Source: Chloroflexota bacterium
GTDB lineage: Bacteria; Chloroflexota; Limnocylindria; QHBO01
Length of the DNA: 64,000 nucleotides
Reading direction: 5' to 3'
NCBI GenBank assembly: GCA_039932375.1
Contig: JBDTQD010000001.1
Location: 15,844 to 79,843 of the forward strand
Position numbers and translations under genes: made by a program. Below the pieces are notes generated by a model that was given only the letters and a program-made list of their open reading frames with translations, searched no databases and was not told the DNA's origin. Below are positions 57,144-64,000 of this stretch, piece after piece (within the stretch, counting starts at the first letter, position 1; every line of letters starts with the position of its first letter).

Positions 57144-58106
57144 TCAGCGCAGGATGGCGTCCAGGGCGGCCGTCAGTTCGTCGGGGTAGGCCATCCCCTC
57201 GAACTTTGCGGCAACCTTGCCGTTAGCGTCGACCACGAACACGTACGGCTCGGTGGGGAGACCCCACTCGGCCACGGCCTTGATCGGCTGCGGGTAGCCG
57301 TCCGCCCCAAGCTTCGGCTGGGTCCGGCCATCGGCGACCTGCAGGATGTACGGCTCGAGATGGATGAAGTTGACCCGACCGATGTAGTCGGGCGCGACCT
57401 GCTTGACGAGGTCGAGCGCGGGTCCGCACGTGCCGCTTGTGCAGAACGCCGGCGTGGCGAAGACGAGGACGAACGGCTTGTGAGCTGCGATCGCCTGCTT
57501 CACCGAGAAGGCGTAGAAAGCCGGATCCGGCTTTGAGTCCGTGGAGATCGCGGCGATCGCCGCAGGGTCGCTGGCACTGAGTGTCTCCGACGGAGGCGCA
57601 TCGGCGCCGATTGCCGGCGTGCTTGTCTTGTCGCGCACCGAGAAGGTGACTCTGGCCGTCTGATCCGGCTTGCCTGGAAGGTGTCCGGTGACCTCCAGGC
57701 CCCAGTCGCCTGGATGCGCGAAGTCGGCGTAGGAGGTGTAGATCGCCTTCGAGTCGGGGATCAGCCAACGGAACGTGCCGGCAGCCTCGCCCGCGGGCGT
57801 GTCGGTGCTGGTGGCGAGCTCGTAGAAGCGCTCGTCGACTGTCACATCCTGCGCGGCGAGGGTTCGTCCGACGCCATCCTGGATGGTGATCATCACGCGG
57901 TTGCGGCCGGTCCCCAGTTCCGAGGAGACGATGATCGGGACGAATTGGGTGTTGGCCACCACCGATCCGCTGCCCGGCCAGCCGGGGTACTGCCCGCCGG
58001 AGGCGGAAGGCGATGAGCTCCCGCCGCTTGAGCCGTTCGAGCAGGCGACCAGCGCAAGGCCGATGACGATCGTCGCGGCCAGGCCGCGTCCGCTACTGGC
58101 TCTCAA
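57144..58106 (-). CDS. thioredoxin-fold lipoprotein with N-terminal beta-domain (cytochrome-oxidase-associated redox accessory protein)
   Basis: Lipobox LALVACS. KPFVLVFATPAFCTSGTCGP is the thiol motif C-x4-C in a thioredoxin-like context. Confidence 0.55.
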   Translation of the reverse strand: MRASSGRGLAATIVIGLALVACSNGSSGGSSSPSASGGQYPGWPGSGSVVANTQFVPIIVSSELGTGRNRVMITIQDGVGRTLAAQDVTVDERFYELATSTDTPAGEAAGTFRWLIPDSKAIYTSYADFAHPGDWGLEVTGHLPGKPDQTARVTFSVRDKTSTPAIGADAPPSETLSASDPAAIAAISTDSKPDPAFYAFSVKQAIAAHKPFVLVFATPAFCTSGTCGPALDLVKQVAPDYIGRVNFIHLEPYILQVADGRTQPKLGADGYPQPIKAVAEWGLPTEPYVFVVDANGKVAAKFEGMAYPDELTAALDAILR

Positions 58107-58986
58107 CCGTCGCTCCTTCGACTCTCCGTGCGGCGCGCTCGTCGGCCCGATGAGTGCGCCGCACGTCGGCTCGCTGCCATGCCGCGATGGCCAGGGTCAT
58201 GGCTCCGAGCAGGATGACATCGCCGGCGCCCCACATCACGATCCCGGCGAACTGCTGGTCTGTGAAAGGATCCGGGCCCCAGGTCCGATCGAGGGTCGCA
58301 TAGTGGGCGTACAGGACCGTTGGCGCGAAGTAGAGGACGAGGCCGACGGCCGTATTGAACGGCATCTGCGCGGTGAGGTAGACCATCCGCGCGACGGGGC
58401 CCAGGCGCCAGCGGATCGGGTCGGCGCCGATGACAGGCCACCAGAAGAGGAGCCCAGTCGCCAGGTAGAGCAGGTGTTCGAGGGAGTGGAGAGCTTCGTT
58501 CTCGAGTGCGGCGTTAAAGAGGGGGCTGAAATGGGTGGCCCACATGACGACCGCGAAGAGGGTCCAGCCGACCGGCGGCCACGAGATAACCTGCACGACG
58601 CTGGAGCGGAGGATCGGGAGGAGGAACGAGCGCCGAATCCTCGGCGAGGCCACGCGTAGGGCGAGCGTGGTCGGTGCGCCCAGGGCCAGGAGCGGCGGAG
58701 CCACCATGGCCAGCAACAGGTGCTGGACCATGTGCACGCTGAAGATGCTATCGGCGTAGACGTCGACCGCCGAGACGAGCGCGACGCCGATCACCGCCAC
58801 CCCTGCCAGCCAGGCTGCCACGCGGAAGCGAGGCACCGGACTCGCCGGGTGCGCTCGATTGACGAGCCGCACCGCAAACAGGTACGCAGCGGTCGCCGCC
58901 ACGATCCCGACCCACGGCAGCGGCTCGCCCGACCAGGCGGTGAAGATGGTTGCGAGGTTTGGTTCCGGACGCATAGCCCGCATCAT
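58093..58986 (-). CDS. ctaG: cytochrome c oxidase assembly factor CtaG (Bacillus Caa3_CtaG/COG3336 type)
   Basis: Polytopic. SVHMVQHLLLAMVAPPLLALGAP is the HMxQH motif. WPPVGWTLFAVVMWATH. Confidence 0.7.
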   Translation of the reverse strand: MMRAMRPEPNLATIFTAWSGEPLPWVGIVAATAAYLFAVRLVNRAHPASPVPRFRVAAWLAGVAVIGVALVSAVDVYADSIFSVHMVQHLLLAMVAPPLLALGAPTTLALRVASPRIRRSFLLPILRSSVVQVISWPPVGWTLFAVVMWATHFSPLFNAALENEALHSLEHLLYLATGLLFWWPVIGADPIRWRLGPVARMVYLTAQMPFNTAVGLVLYFAPTVLYAHYATLDRTWGPDPFTDQQFAGIVMWGAGDVILLGAMTLAIAAWQRADVRRTHRADERAARRVEGATVESQ

Positions 58987-59025
58987 ACGGCCAGCCCAGC
59001 GCAGTGCCGTTGGGCGAGGGGGTTG

Positions 59026-59187
59026 GTGAACGATCAGCGTTCACAACGGCCAACTTCAGCCAGGATCGGAGCAATCGGGGCCGGATGTCAGGTCCAACAT
59101 GGCGCTGGTGAACGCCTCGCGTTCGCGGCGGCCAAGATCCATTCATCGGCCTTGCCAACTTGGCAGTTATGAACGCTCAGCGTTCAT
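59026..59187. repeat. ~160-bp inverted-repeat element, copy A, bounded by GTGAACGATCAGCGTTCAC and ATGAACGCTCAGCGTTCAT, with inner GGCCAACTTC, GGCGCTGGTGAACGC and GGCCAAGATCC blocks
   Basis: Seen directly in the sequence. Related copies are at 61899-62066 and 63045-63192. It lies between divergent ctaG and the ArsR-SRPBCC gene. Confidence 0.75.
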
Positions 59188-59249
59188 GGGAGAGCGCGAA
59201 CTTCTAACGGCGTCGTTGGGCTTGACAAGTAACTGAATGGTTACCTATC

Positions 59250-60038
59250 ATGCCGCCGATGGATGACGTGTTCAGAGCCCTCGCCGACCCGACCCGCCGC
59301 AGCCTGCTGGACCAGCTGTTCAAGGAGGACGGGCAGTCGCTCAGCGCATTGGGGAAGCGGCTTCCAATGACCCGCATCGGGGTCATGAAGCACCTCCGCG
59401 TGCTCGAGGATGCGGGCCTCCTGACCACGAAGCGGCGTGGGCGCGAGAAGCTCCACTTCCTGAACCCCCTGCCGATCCGGCTCGTCCACGACCGATGGGT
59501 GAGCAAATACGCGGAGCCCTGGGCCGTCGGGCTGATCGGGCTGAAGAAAGAGATCGAGGAGGAACGCGTGGAAAAGGTGTTCGAGATCTACATCAAGACG
59601 ACGCCGGAGCGCCTCTGGCAGGCGATCACCGACCGCGAGATGCGCAGCAAGTACAGCTTCGGGGTCGGCATCGAGTCGGACTGGACGGAGGGTTCGCACT
59701 ACCGGGCCGGCCACGTCGCAGCGGGCGTTTCGATCTCAGCGGGCGACAATCTCGTGGTCGACCCTCCCAGAAAGCTGGTCCAGAGCTTCCACGCCCTGTG
59801 GGGCGAGGACGTCGTGGCCGAGGGGACCTCGCGCGTCACCTGGGAGATCGAGCCGGTCGGCGACTCCTGCCGCCTGATCGTTACCCACGATCAGCTCCGC
59901 GAAGGCGCGAACGAGCAGCTATACGGGGGATGGCCCATGATCCTGTCCGGTCTGAAGACGCTCCTCGAGACCGGCGAGCTGCTCACCACGCCCGGCTCGC
60001 TGATGTACGCGCAGATGACGCCGGAAACGGTGGCCTGA
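59250..60038 (+). CDS. ArsR-family HTH regulator fused to an SRPBCC (AHSA1/START-like) ligand-binding domain
   Basis: N-terminus FRALADPTRRSLLDQLFKEDGQSLSALGKRLPMTRIGVMKHLRVLEDAGLL (ArsR wHTH). C-terminal ~150 aa are paralogous to the standalone SRPBCC protein at 62211-62666 (VFEIYIKTTPERLWQAITD...). Confidence 0.8.
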   Translation: MPPMDDVFRALADPTRRSLLDQLFKEDGQSLSALGKRLPMTRIGVMKHLRVLEDAGLLTTKRRGREKLHFLNPLPIRLVHDRWVSKYAEPWAVGLIGLKKEIEEERVEKVFEIYIKTTPERLWQAITDREMRSKYSFGVGIESDWTEGSHYRAGHVAAGVSISAGDNLVVDPPRKLVQSFHALWGEDVVAEGTSRVTWEIEPVGDSCRLIVTHDQLREGANEQLYGGWPMILSGLKTLLETGELLTTPGSLMYAQMTPETVA

Positions 60039-60110
60039 GATGACAGAGTCAACAACCCCACCGCGTCTCCGGTAGACTCGGCCACCCCCGATCAGGAGAA
60101 CCCTTTCCCC

Positions 60111-61790
60111 ATGACTTCCGCCACGCCCACCGCCGCCACCACGACGCCCGACTGGGATCGCGCACCCCTCGAACTGCCGCCTCGGACGCGGATCGAGATC
60201 TTCATCGTCGTGCTCCTGGGAATCCTGCTGGCCGCACTCGACCAGACGATTGTCGGCACCGCCCTGCCGGTCATCGTCACCGACCTGAAGGGCAATGACG
60301 TCTACACGTGGGCGTTCACCTCCTACCTGCTCACCGCCACCATCAGCGGCCCGATCTACGGAAAGCTCTCCGACCTCTTCGGCCGTCGAATCATCATCAT
60401 GATCGGCGTCAGCATCTTCCTGATCGGCTCGCTGCTGTGCGCCACCTCAGGTCAGATGTGGCAGTTCATCGCCTTCCGCGGCCTCCAGGGCCTGGGCGCC
60501 GGCGCCCTCTTCCCGGTGTCGCTGGCGATCATCGCGGACATCTTTGCGCCGTCGGAGCGCGGCAAGTACCAGGGCTTCTTCGGCGCGGTATTCGGCCTCG
60601 CGTCGCTCATCGGCCCGGCCATCGGTGGGATCCTGACCGATACCGTCGGCTGGCACTGGATCTTCCTCGTCAATATCCCCCTGGGCCTGGTGGTGCTGTT
60701 CGTCATCTGGCGCACCCTGCCCACGCGCATCGAGAGCGGCCTCAAGCGCACCGTCGACTACCTCGGCGCGGCAGCCTTCGTCGCGGCCCTGGTGCCGATC
60801 CTGATCGGCCTCACCAATAAGCAGTTCGGCGAATGGACCGATCCCGACGTTGGCGGCCTCATCGCGCTGGGCCTTGGCCTGGCCGCGGTCTTCGTGTGGG
60901 TCGAGTCGCGCGCAGAGGAGCCGATCCTGCCGCTGGGCCTCTTCCGTATCCGCGCCTTCAGCGCCAGCGTCTTCGCGATGTTCTTTGCGATGATGGGTTT
61001 CTTCGCGGCCATCGTCTTCATGCCGCGCTGGTACCAGGTGGTGCAGGGTTCGTCCGCGACCGAGGCGGGGTACCAGATCCTGCCACTGCTTGGCGGGTTG
61101 ATCGTGTCGGCCATCGTGTCGGGGCAGATCGTTGCTCGCACCGGGCGCTACAAGGAGCTGATCCTGGGAGCGTTGCTCATCCTGGCGGCTGGCCTCTTCC
61201 TGCTCACCAATCTGCGCACCGATTCGAACCCGCAGCTCGTCTGGCTGTGGATGGGGGTGACCGGCCTGGGGATCGGCCCGGCCTTCGCGGTCTTCACGCT
61301 GGCGGTGCAGAACAATGTGCCGGTGAACGAGCTGGGCACGGCGACCAGCAGCGTGACGCTCTTCCAGCAGGTGGGCGGCACGGTTGGCCTGGCGATCACC
61401 GGCACGATCTTCGGCACCAAGCTGCTCGAGGAGATGGGGCCGCAGATCGTTAAGGCAGGTGTGCCGCAGGAGGTTGCCACTGGGTTCGCCACCGGCGGCA
61501 GCAACACGCTGAACAACCTGTCGGGCGTGGGGGACCTTGGTGCCCGCATTCTCGCCTCGCTGTCACCAGACGCGCAGGCGCAGCTCAAGCCCTTCATCCC
61601 CGGCATCGTGCAGGGCATCCACAACGCGTTCTCGATCGCGACCGCCACGACCTTCTTCCTCGGGATCGGGGCTGCGCTGGTCGCAGCGTTGCTCGTCTTG
61701 TTTGGCCTTCCCGGCGGGCGGATGGGGGCGACCGCGGAGGCTGGTGCCCCTGTTGGAGCTTCGGCCGCGGAGGCGGCCGCGGAGGCGTAG
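60111..61790 (+). CDS. MFS transporter, 14-TM drug:H+ antiporter (DHA2-like)
   Basis: 559 aa. LDQTIVGTALP, GKLSDLFGRR (motif A-like), 14 hydrophobic segments. Confidence 0.85.
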   Translation: MTSATPTAATTTPDWDRAPLELPPRTRIEIFIVVLLGILLAALDQTIVGTALPVIVTDLKGNDVYTWAFTSYLLTATISGPIYGKLSDLFGRRIIIMIGVSIFLIGSLLCATSGQMWQFIAFRGLQGLGAGALFPVSLAIIADIFAPSERGKYQGFFGAVFGLASLIGPAIGGILTDTVGWHWIFLVNIPLGLVVLFVIWRTLPTRIESGLKRTVDYLGAAAFVAALVPILIGLTNKQFGEWTDPDVGGLIALGLGLAAVFVWVESRAEEPILPLGLFRIRAFSASVFAMFFAMMGFFAAIVFMPRWYQVVQGSSATEAGYQILPLLGGLIVSAIVSGQIVARTGRYKELILGALLILAAGLFLLTNLRTDSNPQLVWLWMGVTGLGIGPAFAVFTLAVQNNVPVNELGTATSSVTLFQQVGGTVGLAITGTIFGTKLLEEMGPQIVKAGVPQEVATGFATGGSNTLNNLSGVGDLGARILASLSPDAQAQLKPFIPGIVQGIHNAFSIATATTFFLGIGAALVAALLVLFGLPGGRMGATAEAGAPVGASAAEAAAEA

Positions 61791-61898
61791 GTTCGCGCAC
61801 CGGTTCGAAATGCTGACCAGATTGGCCTTGTGACGGAGGAACAGCCCGTCCGAGGAGCTGCCCCGTCGTTAGGCCGACCTGCTCAGCCTCGGACCGAC

Positions 61899-62066
61899 GC
61901 GGACCGGCGAACGCTGAGCGTTCAGATCGGCCAACTTCATGCCTGATCGTCGTTTCCACGCCCAATTCGGACGCCAACTGGGCGCTGGCGAACGCTGGGC
62001 GAGCACGGCGGCCAAGATCCGGTTGTCCGCGTGGCGACCGTGGCCGTTACGAACGCTGAGCGTTCA
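61899..62066. repeat. ~160-bp inverted-repeat element, copy B
   Basis: GAACGCTGAGCGTTCA at both ends (61899-61914 and 62051-62066), with inner GGCCAACTTC, GGCGCTGGCGAACGC and GGCCAAGATCC blocks. It lies between the convergent 3' ends of the MFS and SRPBCC genes. Confidence 0.75.
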
Positions 62067-62210
62067 CGGGCCTAACCCGGACGGTTGACGCGGAACCGGG
62101 CCGATCGCCGCGAGCGAGAAGCCGCAGGACCCCTCGGTCGCGGCAACCAGGGGCCCAAGGCCCGGCGCCATACCGGCCTCTCTTCTTGCCTGGTGCCGTT
62201 TGGCCTCAGC

Positions 62211-62666
62211 TCAGGCGGAAGCGAGCTTCTCCAACAGGCGATCCACGCGGTCGTACCCAGCGTTCATGAACTTCTCGCCGCCGTAGGCGATGAGCTGGTC
62301 GCGCTCCTCGGTCGTGTCGTACCGCATCGTGACCGTGAAGTGGGTCTGCTCGCCGCGATCCTCAAAGGTGAAGGTCTCGGTATGGACCTTGCCCCAGATC
62401 TCGAAGGTCTGGACGATCCGCTCGGGCGGGGTGACCTCGAGGTACTCGCCCTGCGAGACCGACTCGTTGCCTCCGGCCTTGGTGACGAAGCGCCAGCTGC
62501 CACCAGTTCGGACGTCCATTGTCTCGACCTCGGTGCCGGGGCCCCACCACTCGGGGATCAGGGTTGGGTCGGTGAAGGCCTTCCAGACCCGATCGCGTGG
62601 CGCGTCGAAGATGCGCTCGGCGTGGATCTCGCGCTCGGTGGGGGTAGTGATGGTGACGGCGGTCAT
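62211..62666 (-). CDS. SRPBCC-superfamily protein (AHSA1/activator-of-Hsp90-ATPase-like fold), standalone
   Basis: HAERIFDAPRDRVWKAFTDPTLIPEWWGP... The start Met is MTAVTITT (62666), overlapping the ArsR stop (ATGA). Confidence 0.75.
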   Translation of the reverse strand: MTAVTITTPTEREIHAERIFDAPRDRVWKAFTDPTLIPEWWGPGTEVETMDVRTGGSWRFVTKAGGNESVSQGEYLEVTPPERIVQTFEIWGKVHTETFTFEDRGEQTHFTVTMRYDTTEERDQLIAYGGEKFMNAGYDRVDRLLEKLASA

Positions 62667-63001
62667 TGGTCTTGTCCTTTCGTGTGTTCCAAGAGCTGTC
62701 CGAATCGGTCGAGTCGTTCGTCGCGCTGGCGCTGATAGGTCTCGATCCATGCCTCAACATCCTCGAGGCGTCGGGACCCGAGGCTGCATCGGCGCATCCG
62801 GCCCACCTTTTGGGTCGCCACCAGTCCGGCCTGCTCGAGCACGCGGACGTGCTTCTTCATGCCGGTGAGGGAGATGCCGAACGGCGTTGCGAGCTCCGTG
62901 ATGCTCGCGCTGCCCCTGCCGAGGCGTTCGAGCACGGCCCTGCGGGTGGGGTCGGCCAGTGCGGCGAAGGTCCGGTCGACCGATGGATACTGAACCATGG
63001 A
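62663..63001 (-). CDS. ArsR-family HTH transcriptional regulator, standalone
   Basis: MVQYPSVDRTFAALADPTRRAVLERLGRGSASITELATPFGISLTGMKKHVRVLEQAGLV. The Met at 63001 is preferred over the listed 63343, which would run through repeat copy C. Confidence 0.8.
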   Translation of the reverse strand, partial: SMVQYPSVDRTFAALADPTRRAVLERLGRGSASITELATPFGISLTGMKKHVRVLEQAGLVATQKVGRMRRCSLGSRRLEDVEAWIETYQRQRDERLDRFGQLLEHTKGQDQ

Positions 63002-63044
63002 GTTCAGTATTGCACATCCATCCTTGCGTTGCAACGTCTCCCGC

Positions 63045-63192
63045 GAACGCTGAGCGTTCATATCGGCCAACTTCGCAGGCCCATGAGGCGATATCGGCGC
63101 AATATTGGCCGGTGTGAACGCTGAGCGAGCAAGGCGCCCAACATCAGGGCATTTCGCAGGACAACTTGGCCGATGTGAACGTTGAGCGTTCA
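63045..63192. repeat. ~150-bp inverted-repeat element, copy C
   Basis: GAACGCTGAGCGTTCA (63045-63060), inner GTGAACGCTGAGCGAGC, terminal GTGAACGTTGAGCGTTCA (63175-63192), and the GGCCAACTTC / CAACTTGGCC pair. It lies between divergent ArsR and the alpha/beta-hydrolase gene. Confidence 0.75.
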
Positions 63193-63236
63193 AGCCAGGG
63201 TGGCGGTGGGACCCGGGCAGCCTGAAAGGAGATTCC

Positions 63237-64000
63237 ATGGGCGACGTGACCTCCAAGGACGGGACAACCATCGTCTTCGACGAGCTCGGCGACGGGCCGC
63301 CGGTCGTCCTTGTCAGCGGCGGCTCCGTGGATCGCTCATCCAACGCCCCCCTGGCTGATCAACTGGCCAAGGACTTCACCGTCTTCAACTACGACCGACG
63401 CGGCCGCGGACCCAGCGGGGACACCCAGCCGTACGCGGTCCAGCGCGAGGTCGAGGACATCGAGGCGGTCATCGGTGCCGCAGGCGGATCCGCCGCGCTC
63501 TATGGGAGCTCCTCGGGAGCCGCACTGGCGTTGGAGGCTGCCATCGCCGGCGCCCCCATCACCAAGCTGGCGCTCTGGGAGCCGCCGTACATCCTGTCCG
63601 GGCGCCCGCACCCGCCCACCGACACCGCCAAGATCTACCGCGACTTCGTGGCGGCGGGTCGTCGCGGCGACGCAGTCGAGTTCTTCATGTCGAAGGTGGT
63701 CGGCCTGCCCGATGAATTCGTCGCCGGCGCTCGCAGCTCACCGTGGTGGCCGGCCCAGGAGGCCCTCGCCCACACCCTCGCTTTCGATGCCGAGATCATG
63801 GCCGACTACTCCCTGCCAACCAAGCGGGCGGCAAAAGTCACCATCCCCACACTGATCGTCGACGGCGCCGCCAGCTTCGGCTTCATGGCCGAAACCGCCG
63901 ATGCGATGGCGCACGCCATGCCGAATGCAGAACGCCGCACCCTTGAGGGCCAGAGCCACGACGTGTCGGCCGAAGTGCTGGGTCCGGTGCTGAAGGAGTT
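63237..64000 (+). CDS. alpha/beta hydrolase, 3' end outside the window
   Basis: MGDVTSKDGTTIVFDELGDGPPVVLVSGG ... LYGSSSGAALALEAA (GxSxG). The open frame runs to the window end, so it is absent from the ORF track. Confidence 0.7.
   Translation, partial: MGDVTSKDGTTIVFDELGDGPPVVLVSGGSVDRSSNAPLADQLAKDFTVFNYDRRGRGPSGDTQPYAVQREVEDIEAVIGAAGGSAALYGSSSGAALALEAAIAGAPITKLALWEPPYILSGRPHPPTDTAKIYRDFVAAGRRGDAVEFFMSKVVGLPDEFVAGARSSPWWPAQEALAHTLAFDAEIMADYSLPTKRAAKVTIPTLIVDGAASFGFMAETADAMAHAMPNAERRTLEGQSHDVSAEVLGPVLKE

What the first reader, a model, noticed from the sequence alone, without database searches (positions are those of the whole stretch)
59026..63192. Three copies of a ~160-bp inverted-repeat element (core TGAACGCTGAGCGTTCA) punctuating a duplicated ArsR/SRPBCC/MFS locus
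Copies A (59026-59187), B (61899-62066) and C (63045-63192) share the same layout. Each starts and ends with the 16-17-bp near-perfect palindrome GAACGCTGAGCGTTCA. Inside, an inverted pair GGCCAACTTC ... AAGTTGGCC flanks a central GGCGCTGG(T/C)GAACGC block. Overall identity between copies is roughly 65-75%.

All three copies are intergenic. A and C sit 45-65 bp upstream of ArsR-family genes and are divergent from their neighbours, which is promoter/operator position. B sits between two convergent 3' ends, so a simple operator explanation cannot cover all three.

Two readings are possible. One is a locus-specific MITE-like or structured-RNA element that has been duplicated together with the ArsR-SRPBCC module. 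The other is multi-palindrome operator arrays for the ArsR-type regulators. The 12-2-12-style palindrome fits ArsR/SmtB operator geometry, which is established knowledge for that family.
Basis: seen in the sequence. Interest (0 to 1): 0.65.

Follow-up and report, generated by a model that had tools for sequence, protein, structure and literature searches.

The report
Triple-palindrome intergenic repeat, not operator
Three old, diverged copies of a ~165-bp non-coding palindromic repeat (a REP/MITE-like element that also sits next to unrelated genes in other Chloroflexota) lie between the genes of an ArsR-regulator locus, and they are not the regulators' operators, which sit inside the core promoters.

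Summary
Copies A (59021-59194), B (61902-62073) and C (63039-63199) each hold three GAACG-N5-CGTTC palindromes. All 7 exact matches in 64 kb fall inside them (0.05 expected).

The element is not specific to this locus or to ArsR. Homologous copies lie beside a nitroreductase/ECF-sigma pair, an XRE gene (two flanking copies) and an AbiE toxin-antitoxin pair in other Chloroflexota contigs.

Both ArsR-type genes have their own promoter-embedded palindromes outside the elements. These are conserved in orthologues that lack the element. Close relatives have ctaG and the MFS gene 114 bp apart, with neither copy A nor the fusion gene.

Among copies, the palindromes and their TTGGCCG/CGGCCAA flanks stay 74-83% identical while the spacers are saturated (34-40%). 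No change in the arms is compensated, and the three copies fold differently.

Other Chloroflexia MAGs carry unrelated 140-165-bp intergenic elements built from the same palindrome, some with the GTAG tag of classical REPs.

Best reading: a REP/BIME- or MITE-like repeat family, new but of a known kind. The enzyme that moves it and its genome-wide copy number remain untested. Interest is modest.

The parts
59021..59194 (+). Copy A of the repeat. P1 is at 59027-59043, P2 at 59109-59125 and P3 at 59170-59186. It lies between divergent ctaG and the ArsR-AHSA1 fusion gene.
61902..62073 (+). Copy B. P1 is at 61908-61924, P2 at 61989-62005 (right half decayed to GCGAGC) and P3 at 62050-62066. It lies between the convergent 3' ends of the MFS and AHSA1 genes.
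63039..63199 (+). Copy C. P1 is at 63044-63060, P2 at 63115-63131 (right half decayed) and P3 at 63176-63192. It lies between the divergent ArsR and alpha/beta-hydrolase genes. P1 ends 9 nt from the ArsR -35 box.
59222..59251 (+). Not part of the repeat. This is the core promoter of the fusion gene: TTGACA, 18 nt, TATCAT. It has an embedded palindrome GTAAC-N6-GTTAC at 59229-59244, which is the likely real operator. The ATG at 59259 lies 7 nt after the -10 box, which suggests a leaderless mRNA.
   Evidence: One search found the promoter (11 of 12 positions). Searches show the same architecture in orthologues L143-L146, and GGTGACC-N4-GGTCACC in the L148 paralogue.
62987..63034 (-). Not part of the repeat. 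This is the core promoter of the stand-alone ArsR gene: -35 TTGCAA at 63029-63034 and -10 AATACT at 63006-63011. The palindrome ATACTGAAC-N6-GTTCAGTAT at 62987-63010 spans the -10 box and the start codon (62996-62998). It is the likely real operator.
   Evidence: Read from the sequence. Conserved in orthologues L147, L148 and L150.
59259..60038 (+). ArsR(HTH_20)-AHSA1/SRPBCC fusion regulator gene. Public annotation gives a 259-aa product that starts at 59259.
60111..61790 (+). MFS transporter gene. It is the orthologue (85% aa identity) of the gene that sits directly beside ctaG in relatives.
62211..62998 (-). Two-gene operon: ArsR (62663-62998) followed by AHSA1/SRPBCC (62211-62669).
59009..60051 (.). 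A segment of about 1.04 kb (copy A, the promoter and the fusion gene). It is present here and replaced by about 11 nt in relatives L152 and L154, which keep ctaG and the MFS gene 114 bp apart.

Best explanation
**What it is.** The three copies belong to a family of non-coding, quasi-palindromic intergenic repeats of uncultured Chloroflexota. The source is probably related to Limnocylindria. The kind is that of REP/BIME/REPIN clusters or MITEs.

**Anatomy (shown).**
- The building block is a tagged hairpin unit, TTGGCCG-(G-W-T-N)-YGAACGC-NNN-GCGTTCR.
- One element consists of two head-to-head doublets of this unit that share a central, doubly tagged palindrome. P1 carries its tag on the inner side, P2 on both sides, and P3 on the inner side.

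**How it spreads and persists (inferred).** A trans-acting enzyme that reads the palindrome plus its tag moves the element. This could be a RAYT-like HUH single-strand transposase acting on hairpins, as for REPs. Alternatively it could be a DDE transposase reading a 27-30-bp terminal inverted repeat. Only those boxes are kept, while the spacers drift to saturation.

**In this window (shown).** The copies are old. They occupy intergenic DNA of a variable region that begins at ctaG, directly upstream of core promoters or between convergent 3' ends.

**What it is not (shown).** The copies are not the operators of the ArsR-type regulators. Those operators are separate palindromes inside the promoters.

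**Effects on neighbouring genes.** Hairpin 3' ends, insulation or outward promoters are possible, but none was shown.
For: 1. **Foreign copies.** Homologous copies with the same three-box layout occur beside unrelated genes in other Chloroflexota contigs. The nhmmer E-values below use the 7-copy profile, which was built from these sequences; the independent 3-copy window profile gave 4e-10, 5e-15 and 1e-12 (the two L126 copies) and 1e-18.
   - L036 lies between a nitroreductase and a hypothetical/ECF-sigma pair (2e-33).
   - L126 has two copies flanking an XRE gene (8e-36 and 2e-33).
   - L139 lies upstream of a DUF6088/AbiEii pair (1e-42).
2. **Box conservation.** Among 7 copies, P1 and P3 are 81-83% identical, the inner flanks 74-77%, and the spacers 34-40%. 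Only the boxes are constrained.
3. **Unit orientation.** All 11 tagged units in the window sit in the layout P1(-), P2(+ and -), P3(+). This is a REP 'head-to-head dimer' layout.
4. **Related elements elsewhere.**
   - 31 of the 118 loci hit by the two-palindrome pattern come from Chloroflexota MAGs.
   - They hold 140-165-bp, mostly intergenic elements with unrelated spacers but the same palindrome at both ends. Many also have it in the middle, which the pattern did not require.
   - Several loci per genome were hit: 3 in OTE_51_metabat_464 and 4 in MFD04580.bin.1.38.
   - In 7 loci the palindrome carries the classical REP tag GTAG. That is 10 of 168 flanks against about 0.7 expected. REP properties are taken from PMC3733652.
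5. **Presence/absence.** Relatives L152 and L154 (CtaG 79% and MFS 85% aa identity, cox synteny kept) have ctaG and MFS 114 bp apart, without copy A or the fusion gene.
6. **Decay in one lineage.** L147 (ArsR 84% identical) has a copy at the position of C whose palindromes have decayed, while the promoter palindrome 40 bp away is intact.
7. **Operators elsewhere.** The real operator candidates lie outside the element and are conserved without it.
Against: - No transposase, RAYT or integrase was found among about 62 ORFs of the window. A tblastn with a recalled RAYT probe found none in the held loci.
- The tag is G-W-T-N-Y, not GTAG.
- Target-site duplications are ambiguous. Three of 7 copies have identical 3-bp YGG flanks, but C-S-G also reads as an extension of the inverted repeat.
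- Copy number looks low. There are 3 copies in 4.2 kb and none in the other 60 kb. Only one homologue appeared in the (truncated) species-genome scan, and three further contexts in JGI metagenomes.
- Box conservation in the foreign copies is partly imposed by the search patterns used to find them.
- Strong conservation of the boxes in old copies would fit a host binding function equally well.
Confidence: 0.55

Rival explanations
1. The element is a binding-site array for a host DNA-binding protein that is not encoded next to it, such as a nucleoid-associated protein or a global regulator of this Chloroflexota lineage. Three 17-bp dyad sites with TTGGCCG/CGGCCAA side boxes would recruit a dimeric or oligomeric protein that insulates or modulates neighbouring promoters.
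For: - Conservation is at the level of sequence, not pairing. There are 0 compensatory pairs, and every change in an arm is one-sided or breaks the pair.
- The boxes are kept while the spacers are saturated.
- P2 to P3 is exactly 61 bp in A, B and C.
- Several copies abut core promoters of small HTH genes. C is 9 nt from the ArsR -35 box, L139 about 15 nt from a TTGACA box, and A 36 nt from the fusion gene's -35 box. A's other end lies within about 20 nt of the ctaG promoter region that is shared with L152.
Against: - Copy B, L036 and L126a lie at 3' ends of genes.
- The boxes have decayed in L147 although the neighbouring gene and its promoter are intact.
- Spacing between palindromes varies from 41 to 82 bp across related element families, with no helical phasing.
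- Classical REPs also bind host proteins, so this reading overlaps with the best explanation rather than excluding it.
Confidence: 0.2
2. The palindromes are auxiliary operators for the adjacent ArsR-type regulators (the fusion protein, the stand-alone ArsR, or both). They would form multi-site arrays upstream of their promoters.
For: - A and C lie upstream of the two ArsR-type genes, and L147 has a copy upstream of the ArsR orthologue.
- The site ATA-TGAAC-N7-GTTCA-TAT resembles the ArsR promoter palindrome ATAC-TGAAC-N6-GTTCA-GTAT. By recollection it also resembles the TGAA...TTCA 12-2-12 style of ArsR/SmtB operators.
- The gene-proximal arms of A and C are the most similar pair of arms: 78% over 49 nt, including the outer flank TCTCCC.
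Against: - Orthologues of both regulators keep their promoter palindromes but have only 45-86 bp upstream and no element (L143-L146, L148, L150).
- The half-site spacing differs by 1 bp from the promoter palindrome.
- The elements lie upstream of the -35 box, not over the promoter.
- B, L036, L126 and L139 have no ArsR gene nearby.
- The palindromes have decayed in L147 while the operator is intact.
Confidence: 0.07
3. The elements are boundaries of small mobile gene cassettes. They would be recombination sites (in the manner of pdif modules or integron attC sites) or MITE pairs acting as a composite transposon that moves the genes between them.
For: - Copies bracket self-contained cassettes: A-[fusion gene + MFS]-B-[AHSA1-ArsR]-C in the window, and a-[XRE]-b in L126.
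- Copy A plus the fusion gene is a clean indel of about 1.04 kb relative to L152 and L154.
- L147 has the element and ArsR-AHSA1 with a different neighbour, PhdYeFM.
- The neighbours are typical accessory cargo: toxin-antitoxin genes and small regulators.
- The site can be read as 9-nt arms around a 7-nt centre, a geometry seen in tyrosine-recombinase core sites (recollection).
Against: - The same cassettes occur in other genomes without any element.
- The indel has an element at one edge only.
- No recombinase or transposase gene is present in the window.
- The attC core motifs RYYYAAC and GTTRRRY are absent from the sequence.
- Cassette orientations are mixed, and each cassette has its own promoter.
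Confidence: 0.08
4. The element is a structured RNA (an sRNA, a riboregulator or a U-less bidirectional terminator) transcribed from the element.
For: - As single strands the copies fold better than shuffled versions (z = -2.6 to -3.8).
- B and L036 lie between convergent genes, where a terminator would be useful.
Against: - No Rfam family matches at E <= 1.
- The three copies give three different minimum-energy topologies.
- There are 0 pairs with changes on both sides, both for the local-hairpin model and for the P1:P3 model. The paired fraction is no higher than in column shuffles.
- No T-run follows any hairpin, and the scan found no terminator in the elements.
- The element is equally conserved on both strands because it is a DNA palindrome.
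Confidence: 0.05

Closest known systems
REP / BIME / REPIN elements (repetitive extragenic palindromes and their doublets or clusters; GTAG-tagged superfamily of Di Nocera et al. 2013, PMC3733652)
   Same: - A short GC-rich hairpin unit with a conserved unpaired tag on one side.
- Units are paired head-to-head and clustered.
- Location is strictly extragenic, often between convergent or unidirectional genes.
- Spacers are variable.
- Sibling elements in other Chloroflexia MAGs carry GTAG directly before the same palindrome.
- PMC3733652 reports that the REPs of the Chloroflexi species T. roseum are clustered at few loci, as seen here.
   Different: - The tag is G-W-T-N-Y preceded by TTGGCCG, not GTAG.
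- The stem is only 6-7 bp with a 3-nt loop.
- The unit of repetition is a 150-175-bp triple-palindrome composite.
- No RAYT gene was found.
- Copy number appears low.
- The GTAG-23 family described for Chloroflexi is a different sequence.
MITEs with long imperfect inverted repeats (for example Correia/NEMIS of Neisseria, ERIC/IRU of enterobacteria)
   Same: - Size of 100-200 bp.
- Whole-element dyad symmetry.
- Terminal inverted repeats of 27-30 bp that begin 5'-TG and end CA-3' in most ends.
- Intergenic location close to promoters.
- Presence/absence between related genomes.
   Different: - No unambiguous target-site duplication.
- No parent IS with the same ends was found.
- The terminal repeat is itself a perfect hairpin and is repeated internally (P2).
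- The element is GC-rich.
ArsR/SmtB-family operators (12-2-12-type inverted repeats over the promoter)
   Same: The dyad has TGAAC/GTTCA half-sites flanked by ATA/TAT. Two copies lie upstream of ArsR-family genes.
   Different: - The element lies upstream of the -35 box rather than over the promoter.
- It is absent from orthologous loci.
- It is present at loci without ArsR genes.
- The real promoter-embedded dyads are GTAAC-N6-GTTAC and ATACTGAAC-N6-GTTCAGTAT.
Cassette-boundary recombination sites (integron attC sites; pdif modules of Acinetobacter plasmids)
   Same: Imperfect palindromes of 60-170 bp lie between small accessory-gene cassettes, and cassette content varies between relatives.
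   Different: - The attC core motifs are absent.
- No integrase or Xer-type gene is nearby.
- Cassettes carry their own promoters and have mixed orientations.
- The same cassettes exist elsewhere without the element.

Membership tests
GTAG-tagged REP superfamily | Short (20-40 bp) extragenic stem-loop unit | tested here: met
   The unit is a 15-17-bp palindrome (6-7-bp stem, 3-nt loop) plus a tag. It occurs 11 times, always intergenic.
GTAG-tagged REP superfamily | Unpaired GTAG (GTRG) tetranucleotide directly 5' of the stem | tested here: not met
   The tags are GTTAT, GTTAC, GATGT, GATAT, GATCT and GTTGT (G-W-T-N-Y). GTAG is found only in sibling families of other MAGs.
GTAG-tagged REP superfamily | Units organised as inverted (head-to-head or tail-to-tail) dimers or clusters | tested here: met
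   The orientation is P1(-), P2(+ and -), P3(+) in all three copies.
GTAG-tagged REP superfamily | A RAYT (Y1 HUH transposase) gene flanked by the same units somewhere in the genome | tested here: inconclusive
   None was found in the 64-kb window or in the held loci with a recalled probe. The rest of the genome could not be read.
GTAG-tagged REP superfamily | Tens to thousands of copies dispersed in the genome | not testable with these tools
   Only 64 kb of the source genome is available. It holds three clustered copies and none in the other 60 kb.
MITE | Size of 50-500 bp, non-coding, with terminal inverted repeats | tested here: met
   The copies are 161-174 bp. The outer arms of 27-46 nt are 83-89% complementary between ends (pairs I2-I6).
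MITE | Target-site duplication flanking each copy | tested here: inconclusive
   A (TGG), B (CGG) and L126a (CGG) have identical 3-bp flanks, and 4 other copies do not. C-S-G flanks also fit an extension of the inverted repeat.
MITE | An autonomous IS with the same ends | tested here: inconclusive
   No second, inverted match within the held flanks of the single-arm metagenome hits. Those hits are chance matches (one checked lies in coding DNA). The collection scans were capped.
MITE | Presence/absence at orthologous sites | tested here: met
   The ctaG-MFS intergenic region is 114 bp without the element in L152 and L154. In the window it holds copy A plus the fusion gene. The indel includes a gene, so it is not a clean element-only empty site.
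ArsR/SmtB operator | The dyad overlaps the promoter or transcription start of the regulated (usually own) gene | tested here: not met
   The elements end 9-36 nt upstream of the -35 boxes. Other dyads occupy the promoters.
ArsR/SmtB operator | The site is conserved upstream of orthologous regulator genes | tested here: not met
   It is absent in L143-L146, L148 and L150, and decayed in L147.
ArsR/SmtB operator | The regulator binds the site | not testable with these tools
   This needs EMSA or footprinting.
Integron attC | R''/R' core sites (RYYYAAC ... GTTRRRY) and an intI gene with attI nearby | tested here: not met
   The motifs are not present at the element ends. No tyrosine recombinase is encoded in the window.
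Described RNA family (Rfam 15) | A match to a covariance model | tested here: not met
   There was no match in the elements at E <= 1.

The most novel reading that the evidence does not exclude
The triple-palindrome elements could be functional boundaries of small accessory-gene cassettes in Chloroflexota chromosomes. They would be sites where a still unidentified recombinase or hairpin-nicking enzyme inserts, excises or inverts promoter-bearing cassettes (regulator pairs, toxin-antitoxin pairs). This would be a chromosomal counterpart of pdif modules or integron cassettes that uses REP-like hairpins.

This reading would explain three things:
- why copies bracket cassettes;
- why copy A plus the fusion gene is a clean indel next to ctaG;
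- why only the palindromes and their tags are conserved.
Probability: 0.08. Interest if true: 0.7.

Novelty: new member of a known kind. Interest (0 to 1): 0.3.

Why it matters
- **For annotation.** A conspicuous palindrome next to a regulator gene is not necessarily its operator. Here the true operator candidates are smaller dyads inside leaderless-type promoters. They can be used directly for binding tests of two very widespread ArsR-AHSA1 regulator families, whose orthologues are 76-85% identical in Chloroflexota and Actinomycetota.
- **For genome biology.** The finding adds an undescribed repeat family to a phylum for which the held literature names only the GTAG-23 REP family. The GAACG-N5-CGTTC hairpin appears to be a shared module of many different intergenic elements in uncultured Chloroflexia, some with the canonical GTAG tag. 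A RAYT/REP-type system may therefore be common there.
- **For genome comparison.** The elements mark a synteny break next to the cytochrome oxidase cluster.

Tried and rejected
- **Rfam** on 58000-64000 at E <= 1 gave only a chance ASdes match inside the ArsR coding region.
Most hits were unrelated repeats, tandem repeats or coding repeats. Only L036 was a true homologue. L102 and L114, first taken for Chloroflexia, are Pseudomonadales.
- **The single-arm pattern on metagenomes** returned 18 stretches. Six hold true copies (four contexts, one of them this locus), and the other 12 are single matches with no full-length profile hit; the one checked (L130) lies in coding DNA.
- **Other collections** gave nothing. 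The viral contig scan returned one coding chance match, and plasmid and phage BLAST returned none.
- **RAYT search** by tblastn, with an E. coli sequence recalled from memory, found nothing. Its sensitivity is low.
- **Pfam** on about 62 window ORFs found no mobile-element genes.
- **Population variants** L001-L006 are more than 98% identical. The elements carry three variable positions in all, in C's spacers, which is too few to read selection.
- **Other identities considered and dropped from the sequence alone:** LexA/SOS box (wrong spacing and wrong genes), parS, dif, and CRISPR (repeat too short, and the 'spacers' are conserved between copies).
- **GTAG-23 of T. roseum** was checked in the paper's supplement. 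It is a different sequence.
- **Searching downstream of the hydrolase gene (on contig L002) for the genes that follow MFS in relative L152** found no matches.

Full report
**Observation**

The last 5 kb of the window has this gene order:
- ctaG (-, 58093-58986)
- copy A
- ArsR(HTH_20)-AHSA1 fusion gene (+, 59259-60038)
- MFS transporter (+, 60111-61790)
- copy B
- AHSA1 (-, 62211-62669) and ArsR (-, 62663-62998)
- copy C
- alpha/beta hydrolase (+, from 63237)

The three copies align over 161-174 bp at 59021-59194, 61902-62073 and 63039-63199. Pairwise identity is 63-70%.

Each copy holds three copies of the palindrome (Y)GAACG-N5-CGTTC(R):
- P1 and P3 form the ends.
- P2 is in the middle. It is perfect in A, and its right half has decayed to GCGAGC in B and C.
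- P2 to P3 is 61 bp in all three copies. P1 to P2 is 82, 81 and 71 bp.

This is far beyond chance:
- There are 7 exact matches to GAACGNNNNNCGTTC in 64 kb, all inside the copies, against 0.05 expected.
- The 26-nt unit TTGGCCG-NNN-YGAACG-N5-CGTTC has 11 matches with up to 3 mismatches, against 0.24 expected.
- No other real repeat family exists in the window.

- The right-arm motif is AACTTGGCC, not the exact complement AAGTTGGCC.
- The two ArsR/AHSA1 modules are distant paralogues, 37% and 31% identical. They are not a recent duplication.

**Anatomy**

The hits show a consistent orientation. P1 carries the TTGGCCG-NNN tag on its inner side, P2 on both sides, and P3 on its inner side. One element is therefore two head-to-head doublets of a tagged hairpin unit that share the central palindrome. 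The three or four nucleotides between TTGGCCG and the stem read G-W-T-N(-Y) in 13 of 14 outer units of all family members.

**Not specific to this locus or to ArsR**

A profile of the three copies finds homologues with the same three-box layout elsewhere. Their neighbours were checked with Pfam.

| Locus | Source | Neighbours |
|---|---|---|
| L036 | Chloroflexota MAG | between a nitroreductase gene and a hypothetical/ECF-sigma pair |
| L126 (two copies; L133 and L142 are the same locus) | metagenome contig | the copies flank an XRE-type HTH gene, next to another ECF-sigma operon |
| L139 | metagenome contig | about 47 bp upstream of a DUF6088/AbiEii toxin-antitoxin pair |

None of these loci encodes an ArsR protein. 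A fifth locus, L147, encodes an ArsR that is 84% identical to the one in the window. It has a copy at the position of C (E = 6e-11) beside a different neighbour, a PhdYeFM antitoxin gene. All three of its palindromes have decayed (for example GAGCGCTGAGCGCGC), although the promoter palindrome 40 bp away is intact.

**The real operators**

- **Fusion gene.**
  - It has a near-consensus promoter, TTGACA-18-TATCAT, at 59222-59251.
  - The dyad GTAAC-N6-GTTAC lies between the two hexamers.
  - The annotated ATG (59259) lies 7 nt after the -10 box.
  - Orthologues that are 84-85% identical (L143-L146) sit 45-50 bp behind a peptidase M3 gene. They have no element but the same promoter-dyad architecture.
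  - A paralogue in L148 has TTGACA-GGTGACC-N4-GGTCACC-TATGAT. Both half-sites have changed symmetrically, as expected for a dimer-binding site.
- **Stand-alone ArsR.**
  - It has -35 TTGCAA (63029-63034), a 17-nt spacer and -10 AATACT.
  - The dyad ATACTGAAC-N6-GTTCAGTAT (62987-63010) covers the -10 box and the start codon.
  - The same dyad is present in L147, L148 and L150. L148 and L150 have only 86 and 59 bp upstream and no element.
- **Conclusion.** The operator-array reading is not supported. The resemblance between TGAAC-N7-GTTCA (element) and TGAAC-N6-GTTCA (operator) keeps it from being excluded outright.

**Presence and absence**

- CtaG orthologues (78-79% identical) on long contigs keep the whole cytochrome-oxidase neighbourhood.
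- In L152 and L154 the MFS orthologue (85% identical) lies divergent from ctaG, with only 114 bp between them.
- Alignment places the breakpoints at about 59009 and 60051. About 1.04 kb (copy A, the promoter and the fusion gene) replaces about 11 nt.
- In L153, ctaG instead has a DUF8173-family gene (weak Pfam match) 16 bp upstream of it and no MFS gene.
- The region beyond ctaG is therefore a variable region, and copy A is not part of the ancestral ctaG or MFS control regions.

**Constraint**

- Among seven copies, mean pairwise identity varies by region:

| Region | Identity |
|---|---|
| P1 | 0.81 |
| P3 | 0.83 |
| Inner flanks | 0.74-0.77 |
| P2 | 0.66 |
| Spacers | 0.34-0.40 |

- Part of this contrast is imposed by the search patterns that found the foreign copies. 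It nevertheless holds among A, B and C, and for the boxes that the patterns did not require.
- The constraint acts on sequence, not on pairing. There are no pairs with changes on both sides, either for three local hairpins or for a P1:P3 long-range stem. The paired fraction is no higher than in column shuffles.
- Single-strand folds are more stable than shuffles (z = -2.6 to -3.8), but they give three different topologies.
- Rfam has no match, and no hairpin is followed by a T-run.
- A conserved structured RNA is therefore unlikely.

**A wider class**

- Of the 118 loci returned by the two-palindrome pattern, 31 come from Chloroflexota MAGs.
- They carry 140-165-bp elements whose spacers are unrelated to ours. 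These elements have the same palindrome at both ends. Many also have it in the middle, which the pattern did not require.
- By a crude gene call, most are intergenic.
- Several loci per genome were hit.
- In seven loci the palindrome is directly preceded by GTAG. That is 10 of 168 flanks. GTAG is the hallmark tag of classical REPs, and here the units form head-to-head dimers (REP properties from PMC3733652).
- That paper lists only the GTAG-23 family for Chloroflexi. It is clustered at few loci in T. roseum and is a different sequence.
- Literature searches found no description of the present element or its palindrome.

**Interpretation**

- The best-supported reading is a REP/BIME- or MITE-like, non-autonomous intergenic repeat family.
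- Shown:
  - the anatomy;
  - the occurrence in unrelated contexts;
  - the box-only conservation;
  - the absence from orthologous sites;
  - the separate operators.
- Inferred: that a trans-acting enzyme moves it (RAYT-like HUH or DDE type).
- Points against that inference:
  - No such gene is in the window or was detected in the held loci.
  - The tag is not GTAG.
  - Target-site duplications are ambiguous.
  - Copy number could not be measured.
- Why a host-factor role stays open:
  - The three copies cluster within 4.2 kb.
  - The boxes are sharply conserved in old copies.
  - Several copies sit next to promoters.
- Why a cassette-boundary role stays open: the bracketing of self-contained cassettes supports it weakly.

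**Limits**

The rest of the source genome could not be examined.

Noticed in passing
window 59222-59259; 62987-63034; 58972-58987: The fusion gene, the stand-alone ArsR gene and probably ctaG each have a -10-like hexamer ending 7 nt before the ATG and no Shine-Dalgarno sequence. This suggests leaderless mRNAs. The ctaG -10 box (TATGAT on the minus strand) is conserved as TATCAT in L152.
   Followed up: partly
L148 2915-3000, compared with window 59222-59251: The promoter dyad of the ArsR-AHSA1 fusion family changes symmetrically between paralogues (GGTAACC..GGTTACC versus GGTGACC..GGTCACC). In L148 the fusion gene and the ArsR-AHSA1 pair are divergent neighbours only 86 bp apart. The two regulator modules are therefore linked in other genomes too.
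   Followed up: partly
window 59259-60038 and 62663-62998 (proteins): Both regulator types have thousands of relatives. The top 120 listed hits for each are 76-85% identical, and some are named as Actinomycetota (Gaiellaceae, Thermoleophilaceae, Solirubrobacteraceae, Conexibacter). This is unusually high conservation across phyla, or it reflects frequent transfer.
   Followed up: no
L029, L030, L033, L039, L062, L083, L092 (coordinates): There is a family of GTAG-tagged REPs, GTAG-GAACGCCNGGCGTTC-AGCG, in uncultured Chloroflexia MAGs and in one MAG labelled Verrucomicrobiia. The units are arranged as triple arrays or 72-bp tandem units. It does not appear in the REP survey that was read.
   Followed up: partly
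L060 3011-5228: An Acidobacteriota MAG has five copies of a different ~150-bp element, with GAACGTTGTACGTTC / GAACGTRAAACGTTC ends, packed into 2.2 kb.
   Followed up: no
window palindrome loops (59033-59037, 59176-59180 versus 61914-61918, 62056-62060, 63050-63054): The asymmetric loop reads CTGAG in P1 of B, P3 of B, P1 of C and P2 of C, but CTCAG or ATCAG in the palindromes of A. The flanks of A nevertheless align in the same orientation as B and C. This looks like loop 'flip-flop', as produced by template switching in quasi-palindromes.
   Followed up: no
window 59187-59193 and 63037-63043; L147 656-666: The gene-proximal outer flanks of the copies next to ArsR-type genes share a YGGGAGA-like motif just outside the palindrome: TGGGAGA in A, CGGGAGA in C (on the gene strand) and TGGAGGG in L147. 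It could be an element end or part of the promoter's upstream region. With only three cases, this cannot be decided.
   Followed up: partly
window 58987-60110 compared with L152 7887-8000: Synteny with relatives breaks exactly at ctaG. The cox cluster side is conserved, while the other side differs between L152/L154, L153 and the window. This marks a variable region that collects small regulator and hydrolase genes.
   Followed up: yes
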